Positions 1 to 51,928 of a stretch of DNA of 64,000 nt are shown piece after piece. Each line of letters starts with the position of its first letter. Position 1 is the stretch's first letter. Location of the stretch: NCBI GenBank assembly GCA_032718475.1, contig JAUCBJ010000022.1:15214-79213 (forward strand), given 5' to 3'. This DNA is from Nemertoderma westbladi. Taxonomy: Eukaryota; Animalia; Xenacoelomorpha. Made by a program: the position numbers and the translations under genes. Under the pieces are notes generated by a model, which was not told the origin of the DNA, searched no databases, and saw nothing but the letters and a program-made list of their open reading frames with translations.

Positions 1-3000
1 TTGTGAATCTGTTTGCCCTTACCCGCACTCACCTGTGATTGTGTATCTGTTTGCCCTTACCCGCACTCACCTGTGATTGTGAATCTGTTTGCCCTTACCC
101 GCACTCACCTGTGATTGTGAATCTGTTTGCCCTTACCCGCACTCACCTGTGATTGCGTATCTGTTTGCCCTTACACGCACTTTTCCGTATCTGTTTGCCC
201 TTACCCGCACTCACCTGTGATTGTGAATCTGTTTGCCCTTACCCGCACTCACCTGTGATTGTGTATCTGTTTGCCCTTACCCGCACTCACCTGTGATTGT
301 GAATCTGTTTGCCCTTACACGCACTTTTCCGTATCTGTTTGCTCTTACCCGCACTCACCTGTGATTGCGTATCTGTTTGCCCTTACCCGCACTCACCTGT
401 GATTGCGTATCTGTTTGCCCTTACCCGCACTCACCTGTGATTGCGTATCTGTTTGCCCTTACCCGCACTCACCTGTGATTGTGAATCTGTTTGCCCTTAC
501 ACGCACTTTTCCGTATCTGTTTGCTCTTACCCGCACTCACCTGTGATTGTGAATCTGTTTGCCCTTACACGCACTTTTCCGTATCTGTTTGCTCTTACCC
601 GCACTCACCTGTGATTGTGTATCTGTTTGCTCTTACCCGCACTCACCTGTGATTGTGAATCTGTTTGCCCTTACACGCACTTTTCCGTATCTGTTTGCTC
701 TTACCCGCACTCACCTGTGATTGTGTATCTGTTTGCCCTTACCCGCACTCACCTGTGATTGTGTATCTGTTTGCCCTTACCCGCACTCACCTGTGATTGT
801 GAATCTGTTTGCCCTTACACGCACTTTTCCGTATCTGTTTGCCCTTACCCGCACTCACCTGTGATTGTGAATCTGTTTGCCCTTACCCGCACTCACCTGT
901 GATTGTGTATCTGTTTGCCCTTACCCGCACTCACCTGTGATTGTGAATCTGTTTGCCCTTACACTTTTCCGTATCTGTTTGCCCTTACCCGCACTCACCT
1001 GTGATTGTGTATCTGTTTGCTCTTACCCGCACTCACCTGTGATTGTGTATCTGTTTGCCCTTACCCGCACTCACCTGTGATTGTGAATCTGTTTGCCCTT
1101 ACACGCACTTTTCCGTATCTGTTTGCCCTTACCCGCACTCACCTGTGATTGTGTATCTGTTTGCTCTTACCCGCACTCACCTGTGATTGTGTATCTGTTT
1201 GCCCTTACCCGCACTCACCTGTGATTGTGTATCTGTTTGCCCTTACCCGCACTCACCTGTGATTGTGAATCTGTTTGCCCTTACACGCACTTTTCCGTAT
1301 CTGTTTGCCCTTACCCGCACTCACCTGTGATTGTGTATCTGTTTGCTCTTACCCGCACTCACCTGTGATTGTGTATCTGTTTGCCCTTACCCGCACTCAC
1401 CTGTGATTGTGAATCTGTTTGCCCTTACACGCACTTTTCCGTATCTGTTTGCCCTTACCCGCACTCACCTGTGATTGTGTATCTGTTTGCTCTTACCCGC
1501 ACTCACCTGTGATTGTGTATCTGTTTGCCCTTACCCGCACTCACCTGTGATTGTGAATCTGTTTGCCCTTACACGCACTTTTCCGTATCTGTTTGCTCTT
1601 ACCCGCACTCACCTGTGATTGTGTATCTGTTTGCCCTTACCCGCACTCACCTGTGATTGTGTATCTGTTTGCCCTTACCCGCACTCACCTGTGATTGTGA
1701 ATCTGTTTGCCCTTACACGCACTTTTCCGTATCTGTTTGCCCTTACACGCACTTTTCCGTATCTGTTTGCCCTTACCCGCACTCACCCGTGATTGTGAAT
1801 CTGTTTGCTCTTACCCGCACTCACCTGTGATTGTGTATCTGTTTGCCCTTACCCGCACTCACCTGTGATTGTGTATCTGTTTGCTCTTACCCGCACTCAC
1901 CTGTGATTGCGTATCTGTTTGCCCTTACCCGCACTCACCTGTGATTGTGAATCTGTTTGCCCTTACACGCACTCACCTGTGATTGTGAATCTGTTTGCCC
2001 TTACACGCACTTTTCCGTATCTGTTTGCTCTTACCCGCACTCACCTGTGATTGTGTATCTGTTTGCCCTTACCCGCACTCACCTGTGATTGTGTATCTGT
2101 TTGCTCTTACCCGCACTCACCTGTGATTGTGTATCTGTTTGCCCTTACCCGCACTCACCTGTGATTGTGTATCTGTTTGCCCTTACCCGCACTCACCTGT
2201 GATTGTGTATCTGTTTGCTCTTACCCGCACTCACCTGTGATTGTGTATCTGTTTGCTCTTACCCGCACTCACCTGTGATTGTGTATCTGTTTGACCTTAC
2301 CCGCACTCACCTGTGATTGCGTATCTGTTTGCCCTTACCCGCACTCACCTGTGATTGTGTATCTGTTTGCTCTTACCCGCACTCACCTGTGATTGTGAAT
2401 CTGTTTGCCCTTACACGCACTTTTCCGTATCTGTTTGCCCTTACCCGCACTCACCTGTGATTGTGAATCTGTTTGCCCTTACACGCACTTTTCCGTATCT
2501 GTTTGCCCTTACCCGCACTCACCTGTGATTGTGAATCTGTTTGCCCTTACACGCACTTTTCCGTATCTGTTTGCTCTTACCCGCACTCACCTGTGATTGT
2601 GTATCTGTTTGCTCTTACCCGCACTCACCTGTGATTGTGTATCTGTTTGCCCTTACCCGCACTCACCTGTGATTGTGTATCTGTTTGCTCTTACCCGCAC
2701 TCACCTGTGATTGTGTATCTGTTTGACCTTACCCGCACTCACCTGTGATTGTGAATCTGTTTGCCCTTACACGCACTTTTCCGTATCTGTTTGCTCTTAC
2801 CCGCACTCACCTGTGATTGCGTATCTGTTTGACCTTACCCGCACTCACCTGTGATTGTGAATCTGTTTGCCCTTACACGCACTTTTCCGTATCTGTTTGC
2901 CCTTACCCGCACTCACCTGTGATTGTGTATCTGTTTGACCTTACCCGCACTCACCTGTGATTGTGAATCTGTTTGCCCTTACACGCACTTTTCCGTATCT

Positions 3001-6000
3001 GTTTGCCCTTACCCGCACTCACCTGTGATTGTGTATCTGTTTGCCCTTACCCGCACTCACCTGTGATTGCGTATCTGTTTGCTCTTACCCGCACTCACCT
3101 GTGATTGCGTATCTGTTTGCTCTTACCCGCACTCACCTGTGATTGCGTATCTGTTTGCCCTTACACGCACTTTTCCGTATCTGTTTGCTCTTACCCGCAC
3201 TCACCTGTGATTGTGTATCTGTTTGCCCTTACCCGCACTCACCTGTGATTGCGTATCTGTTTGCCCTTACACGCACTTTTCCGTATCTGTTTGCTCTTAC
3301 CCGCACTCACCTGTGATTGTGTATCTGTTTGCCCTTACCCGCACTCACCTGTGATTGTGTATCTGTTTGCTCTTACCCGCACTCACCTGTGATTGTGTAT
3401 CTGTTTGACCTTACCCGCACTCACCTGTGATTGTGAATCTGTTTGCCCTTACACGCACTTTTCCGTATCTGTTTGCTCTTACCCGCACTCACCTGTGATT
3501 GTGTATCTGTTTGACCTTACCCGCACTCACCTGTGATTGCGTATCTGTTTGCCCTTACCCGCACTCACCTGTGATTGTGTATCTGTTTGCTCTTACCCGC
3601 ACTCACCTGTGATTGTGAATCTGTTTGCCCTTACCCGCACTCACCTGTGATTGTGTATCTGTTTGCCCTTACCCGCACTCACCTGTGATTGTGTATCTGT
3701 TTGCCCTTACACGCACTTTTCCGTATCTGTTTGCTCTTACCCGCACTCACCTGTGATTGCGTATCTGTTTGCCCTTACACGCACTTTTCCGTATCTGTTT
3801 GCTCTTACCCGCACTCACCTGTGATTGTGTATCTGTTTGCCCTTACCCGCACTCACCTGTGATTGTGTATCTGTTTGCCCTTACCCGCACTCACCTGTGA
3901 TTGTGTATCTGTTTGCTCTTACCCGCACTCACCTGTGATTGTGTATCTGTTTGCTCTTACCCGCACTCACCTGTGATTGTGAATCTGTTTGCCCTTACCC
4001 GCACTCACCTGTGATTGTGTATCTGTTTGCCCTTACCCGCACTCACCTGTGATTGTGTATCTGTTTGCCCTTACACGCACTTTTCCGTATCTGTTTGCTC
4101 TTACCCGCACTCACCTGTGATTGTGTATCTGTTTGCCCTTACCCGCACTCACCTGTGATTGTGTATCTGTTTGCCCTTACCCGCACTCACCTGTGATTGT
4201 GTATCTGTTTGCTCTTACCCGCACTCACCTGTGATTGTGTATCTGTTTGCTCTTACCCGCACTCACCTGTGATTGTGAATCTGTTTGCCCTTACCCGCAC
4301 TCACCTGTGATTGTGTATCTGTTTGCCCTTACCCGCACTCACCTGTGATTGTGTATCTGTTTGCCCTTACACGCACTTTTCCGTATCTGTTTGCTCTTAC
4401 CCGCACTCACCTGTGATTGTGTATCTGTTTGCCCTTACCCGCACTCACCTGTGATTGCGTATCTGTTTGCCCTTACCCGCACTCACCTGTGATTGTGTAT
4501 CTGTTTGCTCTTACCCGCACTCACCTGTGATTGTGAATCTGTTTGCCCTTACCCGCACTCACCTGTGATTGTGTATCTGTTTGCCCTTACCCGCACTCAC
4601 CTGTGATTGTGTATCTGTTTGCCCTTACACGCACTTTTCCGTATCTGTTTGCTCTTACCCGCACTCACCTGTGATTGCGTATCTGTTTGCCCTTACACGC
4701 ACTTTTCCGTATCTGTTTGCTCTTACCCGCACTCACCTGTGATTGTGTATCTGTTTGCCCTTACCCGCACTCACCTGTGATTGTGTATCTGTTTGCCCTT
4801 ACACGCACTTTTCCGTATCTGTTTGCTCTTACCCGCACTCACCTGTGATTGCGTATCTGTTTGCCCTTACACGCACTTTTCCGTATCTGTTTGCTCTTAC
4901 CCGCACTCACCTGTGATTGTGTATCTGTTTGCCCTTACACGCACTTTTCCGTATCTGTTTGCTCTTACCCGCACTCACCTGTGATTGTGTATCTGTTTGC
5001 CCTTACCCGCACTCACCTGTGATTGCGTATCTGTTTGCCCTTACACGCACTCACCTGTGATTGCGTATCTGTTTGCCCTTACACGCACTTTTCCGTATCT
5101 GTTTGCTCTTACCCGCACTCACCTGTGATTGTGTATCTGTTTGCCCTTACCCGCACTCACCTGTGATTGTGTATCTGTTTGCCCTTACACGCACTTTTCC
5201 GTATCTGTTTGCCCTTACCCGCACTCACCTGTGATTGTGTATCTGTTTGCCCTTACCCGCACTCACCTGTGATTGTGTATCTGTTTGCCCTTACACGCAC
5301 TTTTCCGTATCTGTTTGCTCTTACCCGCACTCACCTGTGATTGTGTATCTGTTTGCCCTTACCCGCACTCACCTGTGATTGTGTATCTGTTTGCTCTTAC
5401 CCGCACTCACCTGTGATTGTGTATCTGTTTGCCCTTACCCGCACTCACCTGTGATTGTGTATCTGTTTGCTCTTACCCGCACTCACCTGTGATTGTGAAT
5501 CTGTTTGCCCTTACCCGCACTCACCTGTGATTGTGAATCTGTTTGCCCTTACACGCACTTTTCCGTATCTGTTTGCTCTTACCCGCACTCACCTGTGATT
5601 GTGAATCTGTTTGCCCTTACACGCACTTTTCCGTATCTGTTTGCTCTTACCCGCACTCACCTGTGATTGTGAATCTGTTTGCCCTTACACGCACTTTTCC
5701 GTATCTGTTTGCTCTTACCCGCACTCACCTGTGATTGTGAATCTGTTTGCCCTTACACGCACTTTTCCGTATCTGTTTGCTCTTACCCGCACTCACCTGT
5801 GATTGTGAATCTGTTTGCCCTTACACGCACTTTTCCGTATCTGTTTGCTCTTACCCGCACTCACCTGTGATTGTCTATCTGTTTGCCCTTACCCGCACTC
5901 ACCTGTGATTGTGTATCTGTTTGCTCTTACCCGCACTCACCTGTGATTGTGAATCTGTTTGCCCTTACCCGCACTCACCCGTGATTGTGTATCTGTTTGC

Positions 6001-9000
6001 CCTTACCCGCACTCACCTGTGATTGTGAATCTGTTTGCCCTTACACGCACTTTTCCGTATCTGTTTGCTCTTACCCGCACTCACCTGTGATTGTGTATCT
6101 GTTTGCCCTTACACGCACTTTTCCGTATCTGTTTGCCCTTACACGCACTTTTCCGTATCTGTTTGCTCTTACCCGCACTCACCTGTGATTGTGAATCTGT
6201 TTGCCCTTACACGCACTTTTCCGTATCTGTTTGCTCTTACCCGCACTCACCTGTGATTGTGTATCTGTTTGCCCTTACCCGCACTCACCTGTGATTGTGA
6301 ATCTGTTTGCCCTTACACGCACTTTTCCGTATCTGTTTGCTCTTACCCGCACTCACCTGTGATTGTGTATCTGTTTGCCCTTACACGCACTTTTCCGTAT
6401 CTGTTTGCTCTTACCCGCACTCACCTGTGATTGTGTATCTGTTTGCCCTTACCCGCACTCACCTGTGATTGTGAATCTGTTTGCCCTTACACGCACTTTT
6501 CCGTATCTGTTTGCTCTTACCCGCACTCACCTGTGATTGTGTATCTGTTTGCCCTTACCCGCACTCACCTGTGATTGTGAATCTGTTTGCTCTTACACGC
6601 ACTTTTCCGTATCTGTTTGCCCTTACCCGCACTCACCTGTGATTGTGTATCTGTTTGCTCTTACACGCACTTTTCCGTATCTGTTTGCCCTTACACGCAC
6701 TTTTCCGTATCTGTTTGCCCTTACCCGCACTCACCTGTGATTGTGTATCTGTTTGCTCTTACACGCACTTTTCCGTATCTGTTTGCTCTTACCCGCACTC
6801 ACCTGTGATTGCGTATCTGTTTGCTCTTACACGCACTTTTCCGTATCTGTTTGCTCTTACCCGCACTCACCTGTGATTGTGAATCTGTTTGCCCTTACAC
6901 GCACTTTTCCGTATCTGTTTGCTCTTACCCGCACTCACCTGTGATTGTGTATCTGTTTGCCCTTACACGCACTTTTCCGTATCTGTTTGCTCTTACCCGC
7001 ACTCACCTGTGATTGTGTATCTGTTTGCCCTTACCCGCACTCACCTGTGATTGTGAATCTGTTTGCCCTTACACGCACTTTTCCGTATCTGTTTGCTCTT
7101 ACCCGCACTCACCTGTGATTGTGTATCTGTTTGCCCTTACCCGCACTCACCTGTGATTGTGAATCTGTTTGCCCTTACACGCACTTTTCCGTATCTGTTT
7201 GCTCTTACCCGCACTCACCTGTGATTGTGAATCTGTTTGCCCTTACACGCACTTTTCCGTATCTGTTTGCCCTTACCCGCACTCACCTGTGATTGTGAAT
7301 CTGTTTGCCCTTACACGCACTTTTCCGTATCTGTTTGCTCTTACCCGCACTCACCTGTGATTGTGAATCTGTTTGCCCTTACACGCACTTTTCCGTATCT
7401 GTTTGCCCTTACCCGCACTCACCTGTGATTGTGAATCTGTTTGCCCTTACACGCACTTTTCCGTATCTGTTTGCTCTTACCCGCACTCACCTGTGATTGT
7501 GTATCTGTTTGCTCTTACACGCACTTTTCCGTATCTGTTTGCTCTTACCCGCACTCACCTGTGATTGTGTATCTGTTTGCCCTTACCCGCACTCACCTGT
7601 GATTGTGTATCTGTTTGCTCTTACCCGCACTCACCTGTGATTGTGAATCTGTTTGCCCTTACACGCACTTTTCCGTATCTGTTTGCTCTTACCCGCACTC
7701 ACCTGTGATTGTGAATCTGTTTGCCCTTACACGCACTTTTCCGTATCTGTTTGCCCTTACCCGCACTCACCTGTGATTGTGAATCTGTTTGCCCTTACAC
7801 GCACTTTTCCGTATCTGTTTGCTCTTACCCGCACTCACCTGTGATTGTGAATCTGTTTGCCCTTACACGCACTTTTCCGTATCTGTTTGCTCTTACCCGC
7901 ACTCACCTGTGATTGTGTATCTGTTTGCCCTTACCCGCACTCACCTGTGATTGTGTATCTGTTTGCTCTTACCCGCACTCACCTGTGATTGTGAATCTGT
8001 TTGCCCTTACACGCACTTTTCCGTATCTGTTTGCTCTTACCCGCACTCACCTGTGATTGTGAATCTGTTTGCCCTTACCCGCACTCACCTGTGATTGTGA
8101 ATCTGTTTGCCCTTACACGCACTTTTCCGTATCTGTTTGCTCTTACCCGCACTCACCTGTGATTGTGTATCTGTTTGCCCTTACACGCACTTTTCCGTAT
8201 CTGTTTGCCCTTACCCGCACTCACCTGTGATTGTGAATCTGTTTGCCCTTACACGCACTTTTCCGTATCTGTTTGCTCTTACCCGCACTCACCTGTGATT
8301 GTGAATCTGTTTGCCCTTACACGCACTTTTCCGTATCTGTTTGCTCTTACCCGCACTCACCTGTGATTGTGTATCTGTTTGCCCTTACCCGCACTCACCT
8401 GTGATTGTGTATCTGTTTGCTCTTACCCGCACTCACCTGTGATTGTGAATCTGTTTGCCCTTACACGCACTTTTCCGTATCTGTTTGCTCTTACCCGCAC
8501 TCACCTGTGATTGTGAATCTGTTTGCCCTTACACGCACTTTTCCGTATCTGTTTGCCCTTACACGCACTTTTCCGTATCTGTTTGCTCTTACCCGCACTC
8601 ACCTGTGATTGCGTATCTGTTTGCTCTTACCCGCACTCACCTGTGATTGTGAATCTGTTTGCCCTTACACGCACTTTTCCGTATCTGTTTGCTCTTACCC
8701 GCACTCACCTGTGATTGTGTATCTGTTTGCCCTTACCCGCACTCACCTGTGATTGTGTATCTGTTTGCTCTTACCCGCACTCACCTGTGATTGTGAATCT
8801 GTTTGCCCTTACACGCACTTTTCCGTATCTGTTTGCTCTTACCCGCACTCACCTGTGATTGTGTATCTGTTTGCCCTTACCCGCACTCACCTGTGATTGT
8901 GTATCTGTTTGCTCTTACCCGCACTCACCTGTGATTGTGTATCTGTTTGCTCTTACCCGCACTCACCTGTGATTGTGTATCTGTTTGCCCTTACACGCAC

Positions 9001-12000
9001 TTTTCCGTATCTGTTTGCTCTTACCCGCACTCACCTGTGATTGTGTATCTGTTTGCCCTTACCCGCACTCACCTGTGATTGTGTATCTGTTTGCTCTTAC
9101 CCGCACTCACCTGTGATTGTGAATCTGTTTGCCCTTACACGCACTTTTCCGTATCTGTTTGCTCTTACCCGCACTCACCTGTGATTGTGTATCTGTTTGC
9201 TCTTACCCGCACTCACCTGTGATTGTGAATCTGTTTGCTCTTACCCGCACTCACCTGTGATTGTGAATCTGTTTGCCCTTACACGCACTTTTCCGTATCT
9301 GTTTGCTCTTACCCGCACTCACCTGTGATTGCGTATCTGTTTGCTCTTACCCGCACTCACCTGTGATTGTGAATCTGTTTGCCCTTACACGCACTTTTCC
9401 GTATCTGTTTGCTCTTACCCGCACTCACCTGTGATTGTGTATCTGTTTGCCCTTACCCGCACTCACCTGTGATTGTGTATCTGTTTGCTCTTACCCGCAC
9501 TCACCTGTGATTGTGAATCTGTTTGCCCTTACACGCACTTTTCCGTATCTGTTTGCTCTTACCCGCACTCACCTGTGATTGTGTATCTGTTTGCCCTTAC
9601 CCGCACTCACCTGTGATTGTGTATCTGTTTGCTCTTACCCGCACTCACCTGTGATTGTGTATCTGTTTGCTCTTACCCGCACTCACCTGTGATTGTGTAT
9701 CTGTTTGCCCTTACACGCACTTTTCCGTATCTGTTTGCTCTTACCCGCACTCACCTGTGATTGTGTATCTGTTTGCCCTTACCCGCACTCACCTGTGATT
9801 GTGTATCTGTTTGCTCTTACCCGCACTCACCTGTGATTGTGAATCTGTTTGCCCTTACACGCACTTTTCCGTATCTGTTTGCTCTTACCCGCACTCACCT
9901 GTGATTGTGTATCTGTTTGCTCTTACCCGCACTCACCTGTGATTGTGTATCTGTTTGCCCTTACCCGCACTCACCTGTGATTGTGTATCTGTTTGCTCTT
10001 ACCCGCACTCACCTGTGATTGTGTATCTGTTTGCCCTTACACGCACTTTTCCGTATCTGTTTGCCCTTACACGCACTTTTCCGTATCTGTTTGCTCTTAC
10101 CCGCACTCACCTGTGATTGTGTATCTGTTTGCCCTTACCCGCACTCACCTGTGATTGTGTATCTGTTTGCTCTTACCCGCACTCACCTGTGATTGTGTAT
10201 CTGTTTGCTCTTACCCGCACTCACCTGTGATTGTGTATCTGTTTGCTCTTACCCGCACTCACCTGTGATTGTGTATCTGTTTGCCCTTACACGCACTTTT
10301 CCGTATCTGTTTGCCCTTACACGCACTTTTCCGTATCTGTTTGCTCTTACCCGCACTCACCTGTGATTGTGTATCTGTTTGCCCTTACCCGCACTCACCT
10401 GTGATTGTGTATCTGTTTGCTCTTACCCGCACTCACCTGTGATTGTGTATCTGTTTGCCCTTACACGCACTTTTCCGTATCTGTTTGCTCTTACCCGCAC
10501 TCACCTGTGATTGTGAATCTGTTTGCCCTTACACGCACTTTTCCGTATCTGTTTGCTCTTACCCGCACTCACCTGTGATTGTGTATCTGTTTGCTCTTAC
10601 CCGCACTCACCTGTGATTGTGTATCTGTTTGCCCTTACACGCACTTTTCCGTATCTGTTTGCCCTTACACGCACTTTTCCGTATCTGTTTGCTCTTACCC
10701 GCACTCACCTGTGATTGCGTATCTGTTTGCTCTTACCCGCACTCACCTGTGATTGTGAATCTGTTTGCCCTTACCCGCACTCACCTGTGATTGTGTATCT
10801 GTTTGCTCTTACCCGCACTCACCTGTGATTGTGAATCTGTTTGCCCTTACACGCACTTTTCCGTATCTGTTTGCTCTTACACGCACTTTTCCGTATCTGT
10901 TTGCTCTTACCCGCACTCACCTGTGATTGCGTATCTGTTTGCTCTTACCCGCACTCACCTGTGATTGTGAATCTGTTTGCCCTTACCCGCACTCACCTGT
11001 GATTGTGTATCTGTTTGCTCTTACCCGCACTCACCTGTGATTGTGAATCTGTTTGCCCTTACACGCACTTTTCCGTATCTGTTTGCTCTTACCCGCACTC
11101 ACCTGTGATTGTGTATCTGTTTGCCCTTACCCGCACTCACCTGTGATTGTGAATCTGTTTGCCCTTACACGCACTTTTCCGTATCTGTTTGCTCTTACCC
11201 GCACTCACCTGTGATTGCGTATCTGTTTGCTCTTACCCGCACTCACCTGTGATTGTGAATCTGTTTGCCCTTACACGCACTTTTCCGTATCTGTTTGCTC
11301 TTACCCGCACTCACCTGTGATTGTGTATCTGTTTGCCCTTACCCGCACTCACCTGTGATTGTGTATCTGTTTGCTCTTACCCGCACTCACCTGTGATTGT
11401 GAATCTGTTTGCCCTTACACGCACTTTTCCGTATCTGTTTGCTCTTACCCGCACTCACCTGTGATTGTGTATCTGTTTGCCCTTACCCGCACTCACCTGT
11501 GATTGTGTATCTGTTTGCTCTTACCCGCACTCACCTGTGATTGTGTATCTGTTTGCTCTTACCCGCACTCACCTGTGATTGTGTATCTGTTTGCTCTTAC
11601 CCGCACTCACCTGTGATTGTGTATCTGTTTGCTCTTACCCGCACTCACCTGTGATTGTGTATCTGTTTGCCCTTACACGCACTTTTCCGTATCTGTTTGC
11701 CCTTACACGCACTTTTCCGTATCTGTTTGCTCTTACCCGCACTCACCTGTGATTGTGTATCTGTTTGCCCTTACCCGCACTCACCTGTGATTGTGTATCT
11801 GTTTGCTCTTACCCGCACTCACCTGTGATTGTGTATCTGTTTGCTCTTACCCGCACTCACCTGTGATTGTGTATCTGTTTGCTCTTACCCGCACTCACCT
11901 GTGATTGTGTATCTGTTTGCCCTTACACGCACTTTTCCGTATCTGTTTGCCCTTACACGCACTTTTCCGTATCTGTTTGCTCTTACCCGCACTCACCTGT

Positions 12001-24000: not shown

Positions 24001-27000
24001 ATCTGTTTGCCCTTACACGCACTTTTCCGTATCTGTTTGCTCTTACCCGCACTCACCTGTGATTGTGTATCTGTTTGCCCTTACCCGCACTCACCTGTGA
24101 TTGTGAATCTGTTTGCCCTTACACGCACTTTTCCGTATCTGTTTGCCCTTACCCGCACTCACCTGTGATTGCGTATCTGTTTGCCCTTACCCGCACTCAC
24201 CTGTGATTGTGAATCTGTTTGCCCTTACACGCACTTTTCCGTATCTGTTTGCCCTTACCCGCACTCACCTGTGATTGTGTATCTGTTTGCCCTTACCCGC
24301 ACTCACCTGTGATTGCGTATCTGTTTGCCCTTACCCGCACTCACCTGTGATTGTGAATCTGTTTGCCCTTACACGCACTTTTCCGTATCTGTTTGCTCTT
24401 ACCCGCACTCACCTGTGATTGTGTATCTGTTTGCCCTTACCCGCACTCACCTGTGATTGTGAATCTGTTTGCCCTTACACGCACTTTTCCGTATCTGTTT
24501 GCCCTTACACGCACTCACCTGTGATTGCGTATCTGTTTGCCCTTACCCGCACTCACCTGTGATTGCGTATCTGTTTGCCCTTACACGCACTTTTCCGTAT
24601 CTGTTTGCTCTTACCCGCACTCACCTGTGATTGTGTATCTGTTTGCCCTTACCCGCACTCACCTGTGATTGTGAATCTGTTTGCCCTTACACGCACTTTT
24701 CCGTATCTGTTTGCCCTTACCCGCACTCACCTGTGATTGCGTATCTGTTTGCCCTTACCCGCACTCACCTGTGATTGTGAATCTGTTTGCCCTTACACGC
24801 ACTTTTCCGTATCTGTTTGCCCTTACACGCACTCACCTGTGATTGCGTATCTGTTTGCCCTTACCCGCACTCACCTGTGATTGCGTATCTGTTTGCCCTT
24901 ACACGCACTTTTCCGTATCTGTTTGCTCTTACCCGCACTCACCTGTGATTGTGTATCTGTTTGCCCTTACCCGCACTCACCTGTGATTGCGTATCTGTTT
25001 GCCCTTACCCGCACTCACCTGTGATTGCGTATCTGTTTGCCCTTACCCGCACTCACCTGTGATTGTGAATCTGTTTGCCCTTACCCGCACTCACCTGTGA
25101 TTGCGTATCTGTTTGCCCTTACCCGCACTCACCTGTGATTGCGTATCTGTTTGCCCTTACCCGCACTCACCTGTGATTGTGAATCTGTTTGCCCTTACCC
25201 GCACTCACCTGTGATTGTGAATCTGTTTGCCCTTACACGCACTTTTCCGTATCTGTTTGCCCTTACCCGCACTCACCTGTGATTGCGTATCTGTTTGCCC
25301 TTACCCGCACTCACCTGTGATTGCGTATCTGTTTGCCCTTACACGCACTTTTCCGTATCTGTTTGCCCTTACCCGCACTCACCTGTGATTGCGTATCTGT
25401 TTGCCCTTACACGCACTCACCTGTGATTGCGTATCTGTTTGCCCTTACCCGCACTCACCTGTGATTGCGTATCTGTTTGCCCTTACCCGCACTCACCTGT
25501 GATTGTGAATCTGTTTGCCCTTACCCGCACTCACCTGTGATTGTGAATCTGTTTGCCCTTACACGCACTTTTCCGTATCTGTTTGCCCTTACCCGCACTC
25601 ACCTGTGATTGCGTATCTGTTTGCCCTTACCCGCACTCACCTGTGATTGCGTATCTGTTTGCCCTTACACGCACTTTTCCGTATCTGTTTGCCCTTACCC
25701 GCACTCACCTGTGATTGCGTATCTGTTTGCCCTTACACGCACTCACCTGTGATTGCGTATCTGTTTGCCCTTACCCGCACTCACCTGTGATTGCGTATCT
25801 GTTTGCCCTTACCCGCACTCACCTGTGATTGTGAATCTGTTTGCCCTTACCCGCACTCACCTGTGATTGTGAATCTGTTTGCCCTTACACGCACTTTTCC
25901 GTATCTGTTTGCCCTTACCCGCACTCACCTGTGATTGCGTATCTGTTTGCCCTTACCCGCACTCACCTGTGATTGTGAATCTGTTTGCCCTTACACGCAC
26001 TTTTCCGTATCTGTTTGCCCTTACCCGCACTCACCTGTGATTGCGTATCTGTTTGCCCTTACCCGCACTCACCTGTGATTGCGTATCTGTTTGCCCTTAC
26101 CCGCACTCACCTGTGATTGCGTATCTGTTTGCCCTTACACGCACTTTTCCGTATCTGTTTGCTCTTACCCGCACTCACCTGTGATTGCGTATCTGTTTGC
26201 CCTTACCCGCACTCACCTGTGATTGCGTATCTGTTTGCCCTTACCCGCACTCACCTGTGATTGCGTATCTGTTTGCCCTTACCCGCACTCACCTGTGATT
26301 GCGTATCTGTTTGCCCTTACCCGCACTCACCTGTGATTGCGTATCTGTTTGCCCTTACCCGCACTCACCTGTGATTGTGAATCTGTTTGCCCTTACACGC
26401 ACTTTTCCGTATCTGTTTGCTCTTACCCGCACTCACCTGTGATTGCGTATCTGTTTGCCCTTACCCGCACTCACCTGTGATTGCGTATCTGTTTGCCCTT
26501 ACACGCACTTTTCCGTATCTGTTTGCTCTTACCCGCACTCACCTGTGATTGTGTATCTGTTTGCCCTTACACGCACTTTTCCGTATCTGTTTGCTCTTAC
26601 CCGCACTCACCTGTGATTGTGAATCTGTTTGCTCTTACCCGCACTCACCTGTGATTGCGTATCTGTTTGCCCTTACCCGCACTCACCTGTGATTGCGTAT
26701 CTGTTTGCCCTTACCCGCACTCACCTGTGATTGCGTATCTGTTTGCCCTTACCCGCACTCACCTGTGATTGCGTATCTGTTTGCCCTTACCCGCACTCAC
26801 CTGTGATTGCGTATCTGTTTGCCCTTACCCGCACTCACCTGTGATTGTGAATCTGTTTGCCCTTACACGCACTTTTCCGTATCTGTTTGCTCTTACCCGC
26901 ACTCACCTGTGATTGCGTATCTGTTTGCCCTTACCCGCACTCACCTGTGATTGCGTATCTGTTTGCCCTTACACGCACTTTTCCGTATCTGTTTGCTCTT

Positions 27001-30000
27001 ACCCGCACTCACCTGTGATTGTGTATCTGTTTGCCCTTACACGCACTTTTCCGTATCTGTTTGCTCTTACCCGCACTCACCTGTGATTGTGAATCTGTTT
27101 GCCCTTACACGCACTTTTCCGTATCTGTTTGCTCTTACCCGCACTCACCTGTGATTGTGTATCTGTTTGCTCTTACACGCACTTTTCCGTATCTGTTTGC
27201 TCTTACCCGCACTCACCTGTGATTGCGTATCTGTTTGCCCTTACCCGCACTCACCTGTGATTGCGTATCTGTTTGCCCTTACCCGCACTCACCTGTGATT
27301 GCGTATCTGTTTGCCCTTACCCGCACTCACCTGTGATTGCGTATCTGTTTGCCCTTACCCGCACTCACCTGTGATTGCGTATCTGTTTGCCCTTACCCGC
27401 ACTCACCTGTGATTGTGTATCTGTTTGCTCTTACCCGCACTCACCTGTGATTGTGTATCTGTTTGCTCTTACACGCACTTTTCCGTATCTGTTTGCCCTT
27501 ACACGCACTTTTCCGTATCTGTTTGCTCTTACCCGCACTCACCTGTGATTGCGTATCTGTTTGCCCTTACCCGCACTCACCTGTGATTGTGTATCTGTTT
27601 GCTCTTACACGCACTTTTCCGTATCTGTTTGCCCTTACACGCACTTTTCCGTATCTGTTTGCTCTTACCCGCACTCACCTGTGATTGCGTATCTGTTTGC
27701 CCTTACCCGCACTCACCTGTGATTGTGTATCTGTTTGCTCTTACCCGCACTCACCTGTGATTGCGTATCTGTTTGCCCTTACCCGCACTCACCTGTGATT
27801 GCGTATCTGTTTGCCCTTACCCGCACTCACCTGTGATTGTGAATCTGTTTGCCCTTACACGCACTTTTCCGTATCTGTTTGCTCTTACCCGCACTCACCT
27901 GTGATTGTGTATCTGTTTGCCCTTACCCGCACTCACCTGTGATTGTGTATCTGTTTGCTCTTACCCGCACTCACCTGTGATTGCGTATCTGTTTGCCCTT
28001 ACCCGCACTCACATGTGATTGTGTATCTGTTTGCCCTTACCCGCACTCACCTGTGATTGTGTATCTGTTTGCTCTTACCCGCACTCACCTGTGATTGCGT
28101 ATCTGTTTGCCCTTACCCGCACTCACATGTGATTGTGTATCTGTTTGCCCTTACCCGCACTCACCTGTGATTGCGTATCTGTTTGCCCTTACCCGCACTC
28201 ACCTGTGATTGTGTATCTGTTTGCTCTTACCCGCACTCACCTGTGATTGTGTATCTGTTTGACCTTACCCGCACTCACATGTGATTGTGTATCTGTTTGC
28301 CCTTATCCGCACTCACCTGTGATTGCGTATCTGTTTGCCCATACCCTCACTCACCTGTGATTGCGTTTGCCCTTACCCGCACTCACCCGTGATTGTGAAT
28401 CAGTTTGCCCTTACCCGCACTCACCTGTGATTGCGTATCTGTTTGCCCTTACCCGCACTCACCTGTGATTGTGTATCTGTTTGCTCTTACCCGCACTCAC
28501 CTGTGATTGTGTATCTGTTTGACCTTACCCGCACTCACATGTGATTGTGTATCTGTTTGCCCTTATCCGCACTCACCTGTGATTGTGTATCTGTTTGCTC
28601 TTACCCGCACTCACCTGTGATTGTGTATCTGTTTGACCTTACCCGCACTCACATGTGATTGTGTATCTGTTTGCCCTTATCCGCACTCACCTGTGATTGC
28701 GTATCTGTTTGCCCATACCCTCACTCACCTGTGATTGCGTTTGCCCTTACCCGCACTCACCCGTGATTGTGAATCTGTTTGCCCTTACCCGCACTCACCT
28801 GTGATTGCGTATCTGTTTGCCCTTACCCGCACTCACCTGTGATTGTGAATCTGTTTGCCCTTACACGCACTCACCTGTGATTGCGTTTGCCCTTACCCGC
28901 ACTCACCTGTGATTGCGTATCTGTTTGCCCTTACCCGCACTCACCTGTGATTGCGTTTGCCCTTACCCGCACTCACCCGTGATTGTGAATCTGTTTGCCC
29001 TTACCCGCACTCACCTGTGATTGCGTATCTGTTTGCCCTTACCCGCACTCACCTGTGATTGTGAATCTGTTTGCCCTTACACGCACTCACCTGTGATTGC
29101 GTTTGCCCTTACCCGCACTCACCTGTGATTGCGTATCTGTTTGCCCTTACCCGCACTCACCTGTGATTGTGTATCTGTTTGCTCTTACCCGCACTCACAT
29201 GTGATTGTGTATCTGTTTGCCCTTACCCGCACTCACCCGTGATTGTGAATCTGTTTGCCCTTACCCGCACTCACCTGTGATTGCGTATCTGTTTGCCCTT
29301 ACCCGCACTCACCTGTGATTGTGAATCTGTTTGCCCTTACACGCACTCACCTGTGATTGCGTTTGCCCTTACCCGCACTCACCTGTGATTGCGTATCTGT
29401 TTGCCCTTACCCGCACTCACCTGTGATTGCGTATCTGTTTGCCCTTACCCGCACTCACCTGTGATTGTGAATCTGTTTGCCCTTACACGCACTCACCTGT
29501 GATTGCGTTTGCCCTTACCCGCACTCACCTGTGATTGCGTATCTGTTTGCCCTTACCCGCACTCACCTGTGATTGTGAATCTGTTTGCCCTTACACGCAC
29601 TCACCTGTGATTGCGTTTGCCCTTACCCGCACTCACCTGTGATTGCGTATCTGTTTGCCCTTACCCGCACTCACCTGTGATTGTGAATCTGTTTGCCCTT
29701 ACCCGCACTCACCTGTGATTGCGTATCTGTTTGCCCTTACCCGCACTCACCTGTGATTGTCTATCTGTTTGCCCTTACCCGCACTCACCTGTGATTGCGT
29801 TTGCCCTTACCCGCACTCACCCGTGATTGCGTTTGCCCTTACCCGCACTCACCTGTGATTGTGTATCTGTTTGCTCTTACCCGCACTCACATGTGATTGC
29901 GTATCTGTTTGCCCTTACCCGCACTCACCTGTGATTGTGTATCTGTTTGCCCTTATCCGCACTCACCTGTGATTGCGTTTGCCCTTACCCGCACTCACCT

Positions 30001-33000
30001 GTGATTGCGTATCTGTTTGCCCTTACCCGCACTCACCTGTGATTGTCTATCTGTTTGCCCTTACCCGCACTCACCTGTGATTGCGTTTGCCCTTACCCGC
30101 ACTCACCTGTGATTGCGTATCTGTTTGCCCTTACCCGCACTCACCTGTGATTGTCTATCTGTTTGCCCTTATCCGCACTCACCTGTGATTGCGTTTGCCC
30201 TTACCCGCACTCACCTGTGATTGCGTATCTGTTTGCCCTTACCCGCACTCACCTGTGATTGTCTATCTGTTTGCCCTTATCCGCACTCACCTGTGATTGC
30301 GTTTGCCCTTACCCGCACTCACCTGTGATTGCGTATCTGTTTGCCCTTACCCGCACTCACCTGTGATTGTCTATCTGTTTGCCCTTACCCGCACTCACCT
30401 GTGATTGCGTTTGCCCTTACCCGCACTCACCCGTGATTGCGTTTGCCCTTACCCGCACTCACCTGTGATTGTGTATCTGTTTGCCCTTACCCGCACTCAC
30501 CTGTGATTGTGTATCTGTTTGCCCTTACCCGCACTCACCTGTGATTGTGTATCTGTTTGCTCTTACCCGCACTCACATGTGATTGCGTATCGGTTTGCCC
30601 TTACCCGCACTCACCTGTGATTGCGTTTGCCCTTACCCGCACTCACCCGTGATTGCGTATCGGTTTGCCCTTACCCGCACTCACCTGTGATTGCGTTTGC
30701 CCTTACCCGCACTCACCCGTGATTGCGTTTGCCCTTACCCGCACTCACCCGTGATTGTGTATCTGTTTGCCCTTACCCGCACTCACCTGTGATTGCGTAT
30801 CTGTTTGCTCTTACCCGCACTCACCCGTGATTGTGAATCTGTTTGCCCTTAACCGCACTCACCTGTGATTGTGTATCTGTTTGCTCTTACCCGCACTCAC
30901 ATGTGATTGCGTATCGGTTTGCCCTTACCCGCACTCACCTGTGATTGCGTTTGCCCTTACCCGCACTCACCCGCGATTGTGAATCTGTTTGCCCTTACCC
31001 GCACTCACCTGTGATTGCGTATCTGTTTGCCCTTACCCGCACTCACCTGTGATTGTGTATCTGTTTGCCCTTACCCGCACTCACCTGTGATTGCGTATCT
31101 GTTTGCCCTTACCCGCACTCACCTGTGATTGCGTTTGCCCTTACCCGCACTCACCCGTGATTGCGTTTGCCCTTACCCGCACTCACCCGTGATTGTGTAT
31201 CTGTTTGCCCTTACCCGCACTCACCTGTGATTGCGTATCTGTTTGCTCTTACCCGCACTCACCCGTGATTGTGAATCTGTTTGCCCTTAACCGCACTCAC
31301 CTGTGATTGTGTATCTGTTTGCTCTTACCCGCACTCACCTGTGATTGCGTATCTGTTTGCCCTTACCCGCACTCACCTGTGATTGCGTATCTGTTTGCCC
31401 TTACCCGCACTCACCTGTGATTGCGTATCTGTTTGCCCTTACCCGCACTCACCTGTGATTGCGTATCTGTTTGCCCTTACCCGCACTCACCCGTGATTGT
31501 GTATCTGTTTGCCCTTACCCGCACTCACCTGTGATTGCGTATCTGTTTGCTCTTACCCGCACTCACCCGTGATTGTGAATCTGTTTGCCCTTAACCGCAC
31601 TCACCTGTGATTGTGTATCTGTTTGCTCTTACCCGCACTCACCTGTGATTGCGTATCTGTTTGCCCTTACCCGCACTCACCTGTGATTGCGTATCTGTTT
31701 GCCCTTACCCGCACTCACCTGTGATTGCGTTTGCCCTTACCCGCACTCACCTGTGATTGCGTTTGCCCTTACCCGCACTCACCCGTGATTGCGTTTGCCC
31801 TTACCCGCACTCACCCGTGATTGTGTATCTGTTTGCCCTTACCCGCACTCACCTGTGATTGCGTATCTGTTTGCCCTTACCCGCACTCACCTGTGATTGC
31901 GTATCTGTTTGCCCTTACCCGCACTCACCTGTGATTGCGTATCTGTTTGCTCTTACCCGCACTCACCCGTGATTGTGAATCTGTTTGCCCTTAACCGCAC
32001 TCACCTGTGATTGTGTATCTGTTTGCTCTTACCCGCACTCACATGTGATTGCGTATCGGTTTGCCCTTACCCGCACTCACCTGTGATTGCGTTTGCCCTT
32101 ACCCGCACTCACCTGTGATTGTGTATCTGTTTGCTCTTACCCGCACTCACATGTGATTGCGTATCGGTTTGCCCTTACCCGCACTCACATGTGATTGCGT
32201 ATCTGTTTGCCCATACCCTCACTCACCTGTGATTGTCTATCTGTTTGCCCTTACCCGCACTCACCTGTGATTGCGTATCTGTTTGCCCATACCCTCACTC
32301 ACCTGTGATTGTCTATCTGTTTGCCCTTACCCGCACTCACCTGTGATTGCGTATCTGTTTGCCCTTACCCGCACTCACCTGTGATTGCGTATCTGTTTGC
32401 CCTTATCCGCACTCACCTGTGATTGCGTATCTGTTTGCCCTTATCCGCACTCACCTGTGATTGCGTATCTGTTTGCCCATACCCGCACTCACCTGTGATT
32501 GCGTATCTGTTTGCCCTTATCCGCACTCACCTGTGATTGCGTATCTGTTTGCCCATACCCGCACTCACCTGTGATTGCGTTTGCCCTTACCCGCACTCAC
32601 CCGTGATTGTGAATCTGTTTGCCCTTACCCGCACTCACCTGTGATTGCGTATCTGTTTGCCCTTACCCGCACTCACCTGTGATTGCGTATCTGTTTGCCC
32701 TTATCCGCACTCACCTGTGATTGCGTATCTGTTTGCCCATACCCTCACTCACCTGTGATTGCGTTTGCCCTTACCCGCACTCACCCGTGATTGTGAATCT
32801 GTTTGCCCTTACCCGCACTCACCTGTGATTGCGTATCTGTTTGCCCTTATCCGCACTCACCTGTGATTGCGTATCTGTTTGCCCATACCCGCACTCACCT
32901 GTGATTGCGTTTGCCCTTACCCGCACTCACCCGTGATTGTGAATCTGTTTGCCCTTACCCGCACTCACCTGTGATTGCGTATCTGTTTGCCCTTACCCGC

Positions 33001-36000
33001 ACTCACCTGTGATTGCGTATCTGTTTGCCCTTATCCGCACTCACCTGTGATTGCGTATCTGTTTGCCCATACCCTCACTCACCTGTGATTGCGTTTGCCC
33101 TTACCCGCACTCACCCGTGATTGTGAATCTGTTTGCCCTTACCCGCACTCACCTGTGATTGTGTATCTGTTTGCTCTTACCCGCACTCACCTGTGATTGC
33201 GTATCTGTTTGCCCTTACCCGCACTCACCTGTGATTGCGTTTGCCCTTACCCGCACTCACCCGTGATTGTGAATCTGTTTGCCCTTACCCGCACTCACCT
33301 GTGATTGCGTATCTGTTTGCCCATACCCTCACTCACCTGTGATTGCGTTTGCCCTTACCCGCACTCACCCGTGATTGTGAATCTGTTTGCCCTTACCCGC
33401 ACTCACCTGTGATTGCGTATCTGTTTGCCCTTATCCGCACTCACCTGTGATTGCGTATCTGTTTGCCCATACCCTCACTCACCTGTGATTGCGTTTGCCC
33501 TTACCCGCACTCACCCGTGATTGTGAATCTGTTTGCCCTTACCCGTAATCACCTGTGATTGCGTATCTGTTTGCCCTTACACGCACATTTGCGTATCTGT
33601 TTGCCCTTACCCGCACTCACCTGTGATTGTCTATCTGTTTGCCCTTACCCGTAATCACCTGTGATTGCGTATCTGTTTGCCCTTACCCGCACTCACCTGT
33701 GATTGCGTATCTGTTTGCCCTTATCCGCACTCACCTGTGATTGCGTATCTGTTTGCCCATACCCTCACTCACCTGTGATTGCGTTTGCCCTTACCCGCAC
33801 TCACCCGTGATTGTGAATCTGTTTGCCCTTACCCGCACTCACCCGTGATTGTGAATCTGTTTGCCCTTACCCGCACTCACCTGTGATTGCGTATCTGTTT
33901 GCCCTTACACACACTCACCTGTGATTGCGTTTGCCCTTACCCGCACTCACCCGTGATTGTGAATCTGTTTGCCCTTACCCGCACTCACCTGTGATTGTGT
34001 ATCTGTTTGCCCTTACCCGCACTCACCTGTGATTGCGTTTGCCCTTACCCGCACTCACCCGTGATTGTGAATCTGTTTGCCCTTACCCGCACTCACCTGT
34101 GATTGCGTATCTGTTTGCCCATACCCTCACTCACCTGTGATTGCGTTTGCCCTTACCCGCACTCACCCGTGATTGTGAATCTGTTTGCCCTTACCCGCAC
34201 TCACCTGTGATTGCGTATCTGTTTGCCCTTACCCGCACTCACCTGTGATTGTGTATCTGTTTGCTCTTACCCGCACTCACCTGTGATTGCGTATCTGTTT
34301 GCCCTTATCCGCACTCACCTGTGATTGCGTATCTGTTTGCCCTTACCCGCACTCACCTGTGATTGTGTATCTGTTTGCCCTTACCCGCACTCACCTGTGA
34401 TTGCGTATCTGTTTGCCCTTACCCGCACTCACCTGTGATTGTGAATCTGTTTGCTCTTACCCGCACTCACCTGTGATTGTGAATCTGTTTGCCCTTATCC
34501 GCACTCACCTGTGATTGCGTATCTGTTTGCCCTTACCCGCACTCACCTGTGATTGTGTATCTGTTTGCCCTTACCCGCACTCACCTGTGATTGTGTATCT
34601 GTTTGCCCTTACCCGCACTCACCTGTGATTGTCTATCTGTTTGCCCTTACCCGTAATCACCTGTGATTGCGTATCTGTTTGCCCTTACCCGCACTCACCT
34701 GTGATTGCGTATCTGTTTGCCCTTACCCGCACTCACCTGTGATTGCGTATCTGTTTGCCCTTATCCGCACTCACCTGTGATTGCGTATCTGTTTGCCCTT
34801 ACCCGCACTCACCTGTGATTGTGTATCTGTTTGCCCTTACCCGCACTCACCTGTGATTGCGTATCTGTTTGCCCTTACACGCACTCACCTGTGATTGCGT
34901 ATCTGTTTGCCCTTACCCGCACTCACCTGTGATTGTGTATCTGTTTGCTCTTACCCGCACTCACCTGTGATTGTGAATCTGTTTGCCCTTATCCGCACTC
35001 ACCTGTGATTGCGTATCTGTTTGCCCTTACCCGCACTCACCTGTGATTGTGTATCTGTTTGCCCTTACCCGCACTCACCTGTGATTGTGTATCTGTTTGC
35101 CCTTACCCGCACTCACCTGTGATTGCGTATCTGTTTGCCCTTACACGCACTCACCTGTGATTGTGTATCTGTTTGCCCATACCCGCACTCACCTGTGATT
35201 GTCTATCTGTTTGCCCTTACCCGCACTCACCTGTGATTGCGTATCTGTTTGCCCTTATCCGCACTCACCTGTGATTGCGTATCTGTTTGCCCTTATCCGC
35301 ACTCACCTGTGATTGCGTATCTGTTTGCCCTTACCCGCACTCACCTGTGATTGCGTATCTGTTTGCCCTTATCCGCACTCACCTGTGATTGCGTATCTGT
35401 TTGCCCATACCCTCACTCACCTGTGATTGTCTATCTGTTTGCCCTTACCCGTAATCACCTGTGATTGCGTATCTGTTTGCCCTTACCCGCACTCACCTGT
35501 GATTGCGTATCTGTTTGCCCTTATCCGCACTCACCTGTGATTGCGTATCTGTTTGCCCATACCCTCACTCACCTGTGATTGCGTTTGCCCTTACCCGCAC
35601 TCACCCGTGATTGTGAATCTGTTTGCCCTTACCCGCACTCACCTGTGATTGTGTATCTGTTTGCTCTTACCCGCACTCACCTGTGATTGCGTATCTGTTT
35701 GCCCTTATCCGCACTCACCTGTGATTGCGTATCTGTTTGCCCTTATCCGCACTCACCTGTGATTGCGTATCTGTTTGCCCTTACCCGCACTCACCTGTGA
35801 TTGCGTATCTGTTTGCCCTTATCCGCACTCACCTGTGATTGCGTATCTGTTTGCCCATACCCTCACTCACCTGTGATTGCGTTTGCCCTTACCCGCACTC
35901 ACCCGTGATTGTGAATCTGTTTGCCCTTACCCGCACTCACCTGTGATTGCGTATCTGTTTGCCCTTACACGCACATTTGCGTATCTGTTTGCCCTTACCC

Positions 36001-37066
36001 GCACTCACCTGTGATTGTCTATCTGTTTGCCCTTACCCGTAATCACCTGTGATTGCGTATCTGTTTGCCCTTACCCGCACTCACCCGTGATTGTGAATCT
36101 GTTTGCCCTTACCCGCACTCACCTGTGATTGCGTATCTGTTTGCCCTTACCCGCACTCACCTGTGATTGTGTATCTGTTTGCTCTTACCCGCACTCACAT
36201 GTGATTGTGTATCTGTTTGCCCTTACCCGCACTCACATGTGATTGCGTATCGGTTTGCCCTTACCCGCACTCACCTGTGATTGCGTTTGCCCTTACCCGC
36301 ACTCACCCGTGATTGTGAATCTGTTTGCCCTTACCGCACTCACCCGTGATTGTGAATCTGTTTGCCCTTACACGCACTCACCTGTGATTGCGTATCTGTT
36401 TGCCCTTACCCGCACTCACCTGTGATTGTCTATCTGTTTGCCCTTACCCGCACTCACCTGTGATTGTGTATCTGTTTGCCCTTACCGCACTCACCCGTGA
36501 TTGTGAATCTGTTTGCCCTTACACGCACTCACCTGTGATTGCGTATCTGTTTGCCCTTACCCGCACTCACCTGTGATTGTCTATCTGTTTGCCCTTACCC
36601 GCACTCACCTGTGATTGTGTATCTGTTTGCCCTTACCCGCACTCACCCGTGATTGTGAATCTGTTTGCCCTTACCGCACTCACCCGTGATTGTGAATCTG
36701 TTTGCCCTTACACGCACTCACCTGTGATTGCGTATCTGTTTGCCCTTACACGCACTTTTCCGTATCTGTTTGCCCTTACCCGCACTCACCTGTGATTGTC
36801 TATCTGTTTGCCCTTACCCGCACTCACCTGTGATTGTGTATCTGTTTGCTCTTACCCGCACTCACATGTGATTGCGTATCGGTTTGCCCTTACCCGCACT
36901 CACCTGTGATTGCGTTTGCCCTTACCCGCACTCACCCGTGATTGTGAATCTGTTTGCCCTTACCCGTAATCACCTGTGATTGCGTATCTGTTTGCCCTTA
37001 CCCGTAATCACCTGTGATTGCGTATCTGTTTGCCCTTACCCGCACTCACCTGTGATTGCGTATCTG
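1..37066. repeat. Satellite array, 38-bp unit GTATCTGTTTGCCCTTACCCGCACTCACCTGTGATTGY with 30-bp (GTATCTGTTTGCCCTTACACGCACTTTTCC) and 32-bp (ATCTGT-deleted) variants; runs off the left edge
   Basis: Uninterrupted head-to-tail repetition from position 1 to ...TGATTGCGTATCTG at 37066, then unique sequence. Confidence 0.99.
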
Positions 37067-37136
37067 GGTCATTTCCACACTGATTAGCTTTCGTCTTTGC
37101 CTCACCAGATGCGATAGCTGCATGAACGTACGGAGC
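37050..37136 (-). CDS. FAM53: FAM53-like gene, putative coding exon 4 (APYVHAAIASGEAKTKANQCGNDPDTQSQ); its last 17 nt are the start of the satellite
   Basis: Minus strand: CTGAC branch-like motif (37188-37184), long pyrimidine tract TTTCGTTATTCCTCGCCTCTTATTCGTTATTTCTTCTGCTAG, 87 nt open in phase 0 (matching the previous exon end), then donor CAG|GTGAGT. The peptide itself has no recognisable homology. Confidence 0.7.
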
Positions 37137-39691: not shown

Positions 39692-39752
39692 CCGAAGGCG
39701 TCACATTCAATTCTTGGGAAAGTTGATTGTTATTATTAGCTGCATCAGCAAA
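39692..39752 (-). CDS. FAM53: FAM53-like gene, coding exon 2 (FADAANNNNQLSQELNVTPS)
   Basis: Acceptor TTTTCTTTTCAG|, donor G|GTAAGT. The 61-nt exon goes from phase 0 to phase 1 and exactly bridges the flanking exons. Confidence 0.78.
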
Positions 39753-51736: not shown

Positions 51737-51928
51737 CCTGAACTCGAGCAGCTCGATTATCCTCTTGAAACTCAATTTGTGAGCTGTAGTTTATCGTCCG
51801 GATCCACCACTTACAACTGTAGCTACTGTATCTACAATATGTATTTAATAATGCCTAGTAACCAAATATATGGTTATATTCTGATCAACCGTAAAGACGG
51901 TATTAAAAAGACTGGTGTATCTTTTTAC

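What the first reader, a model, noticed from the sequence alone, without database searches (positions are those of the whole stretch)
1..37136. The 37-kb satellite is an amplified exon/intron junction of the FAM53-like gene: a tandem array of 5' splice sites
Seen: on the minus strand the putative exon 37136-37050 ends ...GACC CAGATACGCAATCACAG|GTGAGTGCGGGTAAGGGCAAA. That 38-mer (17 exonic + 21 intronic nt) is the satellite unit, and the array boundary (37066) lies inside the exon. Most 38-bp and 32-bp units therefore carry CAG|GTGAGT plus a second donor-like CGG|GTAAGG, all in the sense orientation. Established: MAG|GTRAGT is the U1 snRNP consensus, and U1 binding also suppresses premature polyadenylation in long introns. 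Inference: the pre-mRNA would carry hundreds of strong donors, which could act as a U1-loading or sponge array, as alternative donors, or as a neutral expansion tolerated because exon definition selects the first site.
Basis: partly seen in the sequence, partly recalled or inferred. Interest (0 to 1): 0.92.

Follow-up and report, generated by a model that had tools for sequence, protein, structure and literature searches.

The report
Giant splice-donor repeat in FAM53-like intron
A 38-base piece spanning the end of an exon and its splice signal in an animal's FAM53-like gene is repeated over 1,000 times in this genome but only an estimated five times in another sample; the RNA found uses the first signal, and the giant array is likely an unselected, runaway example of a repeat type already known from human and lancelet genes.

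Summary
The array (1-37066, about 1,018 units, running off the window) begins inside an 87-nt exon. 739 of 820 38/32-nt units carry CAG|GTGAGT; 182 30-nt units lack it. Two intronless runs from two studies join the exons as predicted and leave at 37050, the first donor; no later donor was seen. New here: a second sample holds only about 5 copies, while a dispersed control repeat is equally deep in all three DNA runs, so this is a 200-fold or larger length difference. Both RNA runs carry a different allele at 37067, so splicing of the long allele itself is untested. A selected U1 sponge or telescripting array is unlikely: the array is nearly absent in another sample, mutations do not spare the donor, and there is no poly(A) signal to suppress. 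It belongs to a known class (human F7 intron 7, ABCA7 intron 18, amphioxus 'mirages'). This scan noted the kind before (12 notes, at least 8 genomes; the 8 shown reach 3.7 kb). Its size exceeds every donor-spanning case my searches found. An LL2R-like snRNP condensate on the long allele remains possible.

The parts
1..37066 (-). Minisatellite array of about 1,018 units (38, 30 and 32 nt; 64-65 types), continuing beyond position 1; lies in the intron after exon 4 except for its first 17 bases
37029..37066 (-). First unit: 17 exonic + 21 intronic bases
   Evidence: perfect loop contig of this unit type in run X2
37044..37052 (-). Authentic 5' splice site CAG|GTGAGT (intron starts at 37049)
   Evidence: X4 and X5 contigs leave the window at 37050 into the same unseen exon
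37034..37042 (-). Second donor-like site CGG|GTAAGG, 10 nt downstream; 7 of 10 bases match the first site; use not seen
37041..37060 (-). Imperfect inverted repeat centred on the donor (arms 37060-37052 and 37049-37041, 8 of 9 pairs), present in each full unit; predicted hairpin
   Evidence: 24 of 2000 shuffled units as good
37050..37136 (-). Exon 4 of the FAM53-like gene, 87 nt, phase 0-0
37067..37067 (.). Allele marker beside the array: G in the window, T in X2, X3, X4, X5 (Pro/Thr codon)
37810..38405 (-). Exon 3, 596 nt; two FAM53 profile stretches in order, below the Pfam cut-off
   Evidence: 5 of 5 differences between samples are synonymous
39692..39752 (-). Exon 2, 61 nt
40137..40400 (-). 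First coding exon seen (ATG at 40220); transcript extends at least to 40400

Best explanation
The array is a minisatellite whose first unit spans the exon 4/intron 4 boundary of a transcribed FAM53-like gene, with over 1,000 units in this genome and an estimated five in another sample; it likely grew without selection by repeated slippage and unequal exchange, and is likely tolerated because the spliceosome takes the first donor. Shown: the gene model, use of the first donor in two samples, the unit's position, the patchwork of variant units. Estimated from contig depth: the copy numbers. Inferred: a short duplication at the junction came first; the hairpin centred on the donor helped slippage; only the first donor lies 87 nt behind a real acceptor and is made first, so exon definition and first-come selection pick it; the array offers no acceptor and no poly(A) signal, so the copies have nothing to pair with; rare use of later donors gives frameshifted or stop-containing RNA that would be degraded. 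That the long allele itself splices this way is inferred, not shown.
For: Four exons join in one open frame, phases 0,1,0,0. Run X4 covers exons only and skips all 3 predicted introns. X4 and X5, two studies, leave at 37050 and have zero depth on 37029-37046. X2: unit depth 126 against flank 24, one perfect loop contig, about 5 copies; X3 agrees. X1: the exact 31-mer 37029-37059 gives 197 copies against 180 in the window, so the long array is in the reads. The control repeat gives 4059, 3359 and 4554 in X1, X2, X3. Donor not spared: 4 of 20 substitutions, 4.7 expected; donor-bearing units fall from 0.96-1.0 in the first 250 units to 0.56-0.88 beyond. No poly(A) hexamer; at most 9 pyrimidines in 15 nt before any AG, against 12 at the 3 true acceptors. 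DNA hairpin stronger than shuffled units, 0-8 of 200 as good. Precedent: F7 uses only the first of 5-9 identical donors; mirages do not disturb splicing and are length-unstable.
Against: No RNA from the long haplotype was seen: X4 and X5 carry T at 37067, the window G; X5 comes from the short-array sample and X4's array length is unknown. Contigs drop rare variants, so minor use of later donors would be missed. In ABCA7, long alleles raise exon skipping 3-4-fold and lower expression, so a much longer array need not be neutral. Only two DNA samples were compared, and X1 may be the window's own source. The far end of the array and the next exon were not located. The hairpin does not favour the first donor (opening cost 9.3 against 8.9 +/- 2.0 kcal/mol).
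Confidence: 0.68

Rival explanations
1. Same origin, but the long allele is not neutral: it lowers or alters the gene's output (exon skipping, use of later donors followed by decay, slow elongation), as long ABCA7 alleles do.
For: About 1,620 sites with predicted U1 pairing of -5 kcal/mol or better, 87 per 2 kb against 13 in the rest of the window; 737 are as strong as the real donor. ABCA7 length correlates with exon 19 skipping and lower expression. 6-16 and CBS use later donors (as cited).
Against: The array holds 20 distinct substitutions and 64 unit types, so the long form has lasted through many rounds of turnover. Exon 3 of this haplotype is open and differs from the others only at synonymous sites (5 of 5). 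No RNA data bear on it directly.
Confidence: 0.2
2. The array is a selected U1-loading, telescripting or sponge element.
For: High donor density, no poly(A) signal and no acceptors, the signature reported for chicken LL2R RNA that gathers snRNPs.
Against: About 5 copies in another sample that expresses the gene. Donor not spared by mutation; 182 of 1,018 units have lost it. No poly(A) signal inside the array needs suppressing. A few nascent transcripts would hold thousands of sites against a U1 pool of about a million per human cell (recalled figure; inference).
Confidence: 0.04
3. The size difference is technical (library bias, filtering, mis-assembly) or reflects two species under one label.
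For: Depths are contig means, not copy numbers, and a filter leaves some records out. Introns differ between samples by about 1-4%.
Against: X1 supports the window's counts. The control repeat is equal across runs. X2 shows only the first unit type, whereas a depleted long array should also show the common variants. The longest exact repeat inside the array is 18 units. Two species would change the wording (lineage-specific, not polymorphic), not the mechanism.
Confidence: 0.06
4. An unrelated satellite inserted here and supplied the donor by chance, or the array is a new intron made by tandem duplication of an AG|GT segment.
For: The unit contains AG|GT. The rest of the genome could not be searched.
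Against: The short-array sample uses the same donor and its total unit depth is about 5 copies, which leaves no room for a dispersed family there. The only loose end in X1 at the unit's edge is array-internal. The next exon does not begin with the rest of the unit, as the new-intron model needs.
Confidence: 0.02

Closest known systems
Human F7 intron 7 37-bp VNTR (PMC1557585; read: abstract, introduction, discussion)
   Same: First unit spans the exon/intron boundary; identical donors follow; length polymorphic; only the first donor is used. The short allele here (about 5 copies of 38 bp) matches it almost exactly.
   Different: F7 has 5-9 copies; here over 1,000, with 17 exonic bases per unit and a second donor-like site.
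Human ABCA7 intron 18 25-bp VNTR (PMC5954066, PMC13747324; passages only)
   Same: Unit carries the donor; wide length range; mosaic of variant units.
   Different: 12-440 copies, largest 10.7 kb; unit is intronic from the GT on; length effects on splicing are measured there and unknown here.
Amphioxus 'mirages' in Adh3 and globin genes (PMC3087553; passages only)
   Same: Invertebrate tandem repeats across exon/intron boundaries; unstable length; normal splicing.
   Different: A handful of copies (3 and 6 at BflGb6); somatic instability reported there was not testable here.
Chicken LL2R repeat RNA (bioRxiv 10.64898/2026.03.19.712899; abstract, sections 22 and 29)
   Same: Long tandem array, donor excess over acceptors, few poly(A) signals.
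   Different: LL2R is a 160-kb non-coding unit (360 x 446 bp) from a retrotransposon promoter with more than 5 predicted donors per 2 kb; this array is intronic in a coding gene with about 87 per 2 kb by a different predictor. Condensates are shown there and untested here.
Satellite-filled giant introns of Drosophila kl-3 and kl-5 (PMC6508621; search listing only)
   Same: A gene transcribed through a large tandem array.
   Different: Megabase introns; nothing in the listing says the units carry the gene's own donor.

Membership tests
Exon/intron-boundary minisatellite (F7 IVS7 type, 'mirage') | First unit spans a real exon/intron boundary | tested here: met
   Intronless contigs in X4 and X5 end their match at 37050, inside unit 1
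Exon/intron-boundary minisatellite (F7 IVS7 type, 'mirage') | Donor reiterated in tandem in the intron | tested here: met
   749 of 1,018 units carry CAG|GTGAGT
Exon/intron-boundary minisatellite (F7 IVS7 type, 'mirage') | Variable copy number | tested here: met
   At least 1,018 in the window against about 5 by depth in sample S2; control repeat equal; two samples only
Exon/intron-boundary minisatellite (F7 IVS7 type, 'mirage') | Most upstream donor is the one mainly used | tested here: inconclusive
   Met in X4 and X5, but both carry the other allele at 37067; long allele not observed
Exon/intron-boundary minisatellite (F7 IVS7 type, 'mirage') | Somatic length instability (Adh3 mirages) | not testable with these tools
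   Needs long reads from several tissues
LL2R-type architectural repeat RNA | Donor excess, few acceptors and poly(A) signals | tested here: met
LL2R-type architectural repeat RNA | Own non-coding transcription unit | tested here: not met
   Array starts in a coding exon whose transcript continues to a later exon
LL2R-type architectural repeat RNA | Nascent RNA retained and enriched in snRNPs | not testable with these tools
   Needs FISH and immunostaining
Intron gain by tandem duplication of AG|GT (Rogers model) | Next exon starts with the remainder of the unit | tested here: not met
   The 30 letters beyond the junction are unrelated to the unit
Recursive-splicing ratchet points | Pyrimidine tract before AG|GT (feature recalled) | tested here: not met
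   Longest pyrimidine run in the array is 3
FAM53 (Pfam PF15242) | Score above the gathering cut-off (27 bits) | tested here: inconclusive
   Only single exons or parts were scanned: best 18.7 bits, E 0.0016; profile 102-126 and 261-302 in order; top family in 4 of 6 pieces, none in 2. No hit for the longer stop-to-stop frame and no relatives. 'FAM53-like' is likely, not proven.

The most novel reading that the evidence does not exclude
The long allele is transcribed into 37 kb or more of donor-only RNA (over 1,600 predicted U1 sites, no acceptor, no poly(A) signal) that gathers snRNPs into an allele-specific condensate of the LL2R kind inside a protein-coding gene. Long and short alleles in one nucleus would then be a natural 200-fold dosage series for U1 loading, first-come donor choice and condensate seeding.
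Probability: 0.15. Interest if true: 0.75.

Novelty: new member of a known kind. Interest (0 to 1): 0.42.

Why it matters
The class is known, so the basic oddity is not new. The scale is: at least 1,018 copies against 440 for ABCA7, the largest donor-spanning case in my searches, and about 5 in another sample under the same organism label. If the long allele splices normally, first-come donor choice holds against over 700 equally strong competitors, a far harder test than F7. If it does not, this is a natural repeat-expansion allele acting through splice-site dosage in a non-model animal. A coding marker beside the array allows allele-specific tests.

Tried and rejected
No whole genome is held, so the far end of the array, the next exon and other loci were not searched; the next exon is not in the window. 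Searches for relatives found none, so no orthologue junction could be compared; a second Atlas query did not complete. The array has no long reading frame on either strand (longest 44 and 77 codons). G-quadruplex as the driver: no 25-nt window reaches G4Hunter 1.2. Mutations that perfect the hairpin: 3 of 20, p = 0.14, not significant. RNA structure as the reason for first-donor use: rejected, opening costs are alike. No strong fixed higher-order period, only local duplications. Look-ups by place and by sequence among earlier findings returned nothing. Seven paper searches showed no larger donor-spanning intronic array; the library lacks most subscription papers, and no supplements were opened.
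Full report
Observation. Tandem Repeats Finder reports one array at 1-37066, period 38, 1021 copies; it runs off the window start. On the minus strand it splits into 1,018 units: 776 of 38 nt, 182 of 30 nt, 43 of 32 nt and 17 others. The first unit has 17 exonic and 21 intronic bases. The 30-nt units lack the first donor. The unit core occurs nowhere else in the window.

The gene. Four exons (40220-40137, 39752-39692, 38405-37810, 37136-37050) have GT-AG edges and join in one open frame, phases 0,1,0,0. Pfam FAM53 is the top family for 4 of 6 exon pieces scanned, with two profile stretches in order in exon 3, but below the cut-off (best 18.7 bits against 27, E 0.0016). The longer stop-to-stop frame gave no hit and four searches for relatives found none. 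All 5 differences between samples in exon 3 are synonymous. The gene is coding; 'FAM53-like' is likely.

Splicing. The run search listed 6 runs, none on record as RNA. Run X4 covers exons only and skips all 3 predicted introns at the predicted edges. X5, from another study, also joins 37136 to exon 3. I read both as RNA. Both stop matching at 37050 and continue into the same sequence, which is not in the window and, read by eye, stays in frame for the 10 codons shown. Neither has depth on 37029-37046, and X4 has no 'goes back 38' joint. The first donor is therefore the one used. Contigs drop rare forms, so minor use of later donors is not excluded. All 24 later sites tested would shift the frame or include a stop.

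Copy number. In X1, which may be the window's source, the exact 31-mer 37029-37059 has depth 2800 against 14.2 for the flank: 197 copies against 180 in the window. Six other contigs, which I assigned to unit types from length and mismatch counts, give 1.4-2.4 times the window's counts. The array is thus in the reads and is probably about 40-90 kb per genome equivalent. In X2 (sample S2) only 3 records were laid; the unit's depth is 126 against a flank of 24, from one perfect loop of the first unit type: about 5 copies. X3, the same sample, agrees. A dispersed repeat in intron 2 gives 4059, 3359 and 4554 flank-equivalents in X1, X2, X3, so the runs are comparable. The difference is at least 200-fold. 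It rests on two samples and on contig depth.

Main gap. X2, X3, X4 and X5 all read T at 37067, the window G. X5 is from the short-array sample; X4 shares five differences with it and its array length is unknown. No transcript of the long haplotype was seen. The X1 flank contig stops at 37068 and a depth-4 contig carries three S2 alleles, so S1 may be heterozygous (inference).

Inside the array. The map of unit types shows domains and local duplications, the longest exact one 18 units. There are 20 distinct substitutions and 64 types, so it grew over many rounds. The donor is not spared: 4 of 20 substitutions fall in its 9 positions, 4.7 expected. Donor-bearing units fall from 0.96-1.0 in the first 250 units to 0.56-0.88 beyond (blocks share descent, so the p value is overstated). 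The sense strand has none of 12 poly(A) hexamers and no pyrimidine run above 3; about 1,620 sites pair with U1 at -5 kcal/mol or better, 737 as well as the real donor (U1 end recalled). Each full unit has an imperfect inverted repeat centred on the donor (24 of 2000 shuffled units as good) and folds more stably as DNA than shuffled units (0-8 of 200). This may help slippage (inference). It masks first and later donors alike (9.3 against 8.9 kcal/mol), so position, not structure, best explains the choice.

Mechanism. A short duplication across the junction made an F7-like VNTR, still seen in S2. In the window's lineage it expanded by slippage and unequal exchange (inferred; the opposite direction is less likely because S2 shows only the first unit type). 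Only the first donor lies behind a real acceptor at exon distance and it is transcribed first; the copies have no acceptor to pair with. I give this 0.68, a harmful long allele 0.2, a technical or two-species explanation 0.06, a selected U1 array 0.04, a chance insertion or new intron 0.02.

Known cases. F7 intron 7: 37-bp unit across the boundary, 5-9 copies, first donor only; the same introduction lists 6-16, CBS, LAMIN B2 and PDGF (PMC1557585; abstract, introduction, discussion). ABCA7 intron 18: 12-440 copies, up to 10.7 kb, length linked to exon skipping and lower expression (PMC5954066, PMC13747324; passages). Amphioxus mirages (PMC3087553; passages). Chicken LL2R shows that donor-rich repeat RNA can gather snRNPs (bioRxiv 10.64898/2026.03.19.712899; abstract, sections 22, 29). 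This scan holds 12 notes of the kind in at least 8 genomes; the 8 shown span 756-3674 letters (unchecked AI notes). Seven paper searches showed no larger donor-spanning intronic array; that is not proof.

Verdict. A real, extreme member of a known class, with a 200-fold length difference that makes donor choice and U1 loading testable between alleles. Interest 0.42.

Noticed in passing
window 43562-52424, minus strand: Bel/Pao-type LTR retrotransposon upstream of the gene's first coding exon, same orientation: terminal repeats 99-100% alike, Pfam DUF1759, Peptidase_A17, DUF5641 and weak integrase hits; coding region in four separate open frames. Probably a recent insertion; presence in other samples not tested.
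   Followed up: partly
window 59778-59945: Perfect 168-bp palindrome, two 84-nt arms with no spacer.
   Followed up: no
window about 39200-39400 (intron 2): Short dispersed repeat at about 3,400-4,600 flank-equivalents in three DNA runs; used as depth control.
   Followed up: partly
window 37801-37812: The exon 3 donor GAT|GTTAGT pairs weakly with U1 (-3.4 kcal/mol) yet is used, while hundreds of -13.3 sites in the array were not seen used.
   Followed up: partly
window 37127, run X4: A depth-7 contig ends in 23 letters that resemble a template-switch cDNA adaptor (recalled), consistent with X4 being cDNA.
   Followed up: no
window 54200-57507: 292/147-bp tandem repeat and 10-bp repeats, with partial second copies about 2 kb away, some inverted; looks like pieces of a transposon.
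   Followed up: no
window 37068 and 37557-37669, run X1: Flank contig stops just before the G/T marker and a minor contig carries S2-like alleles; the window's sample may be heterozygous, second array length unknown.
   Followed up: partly
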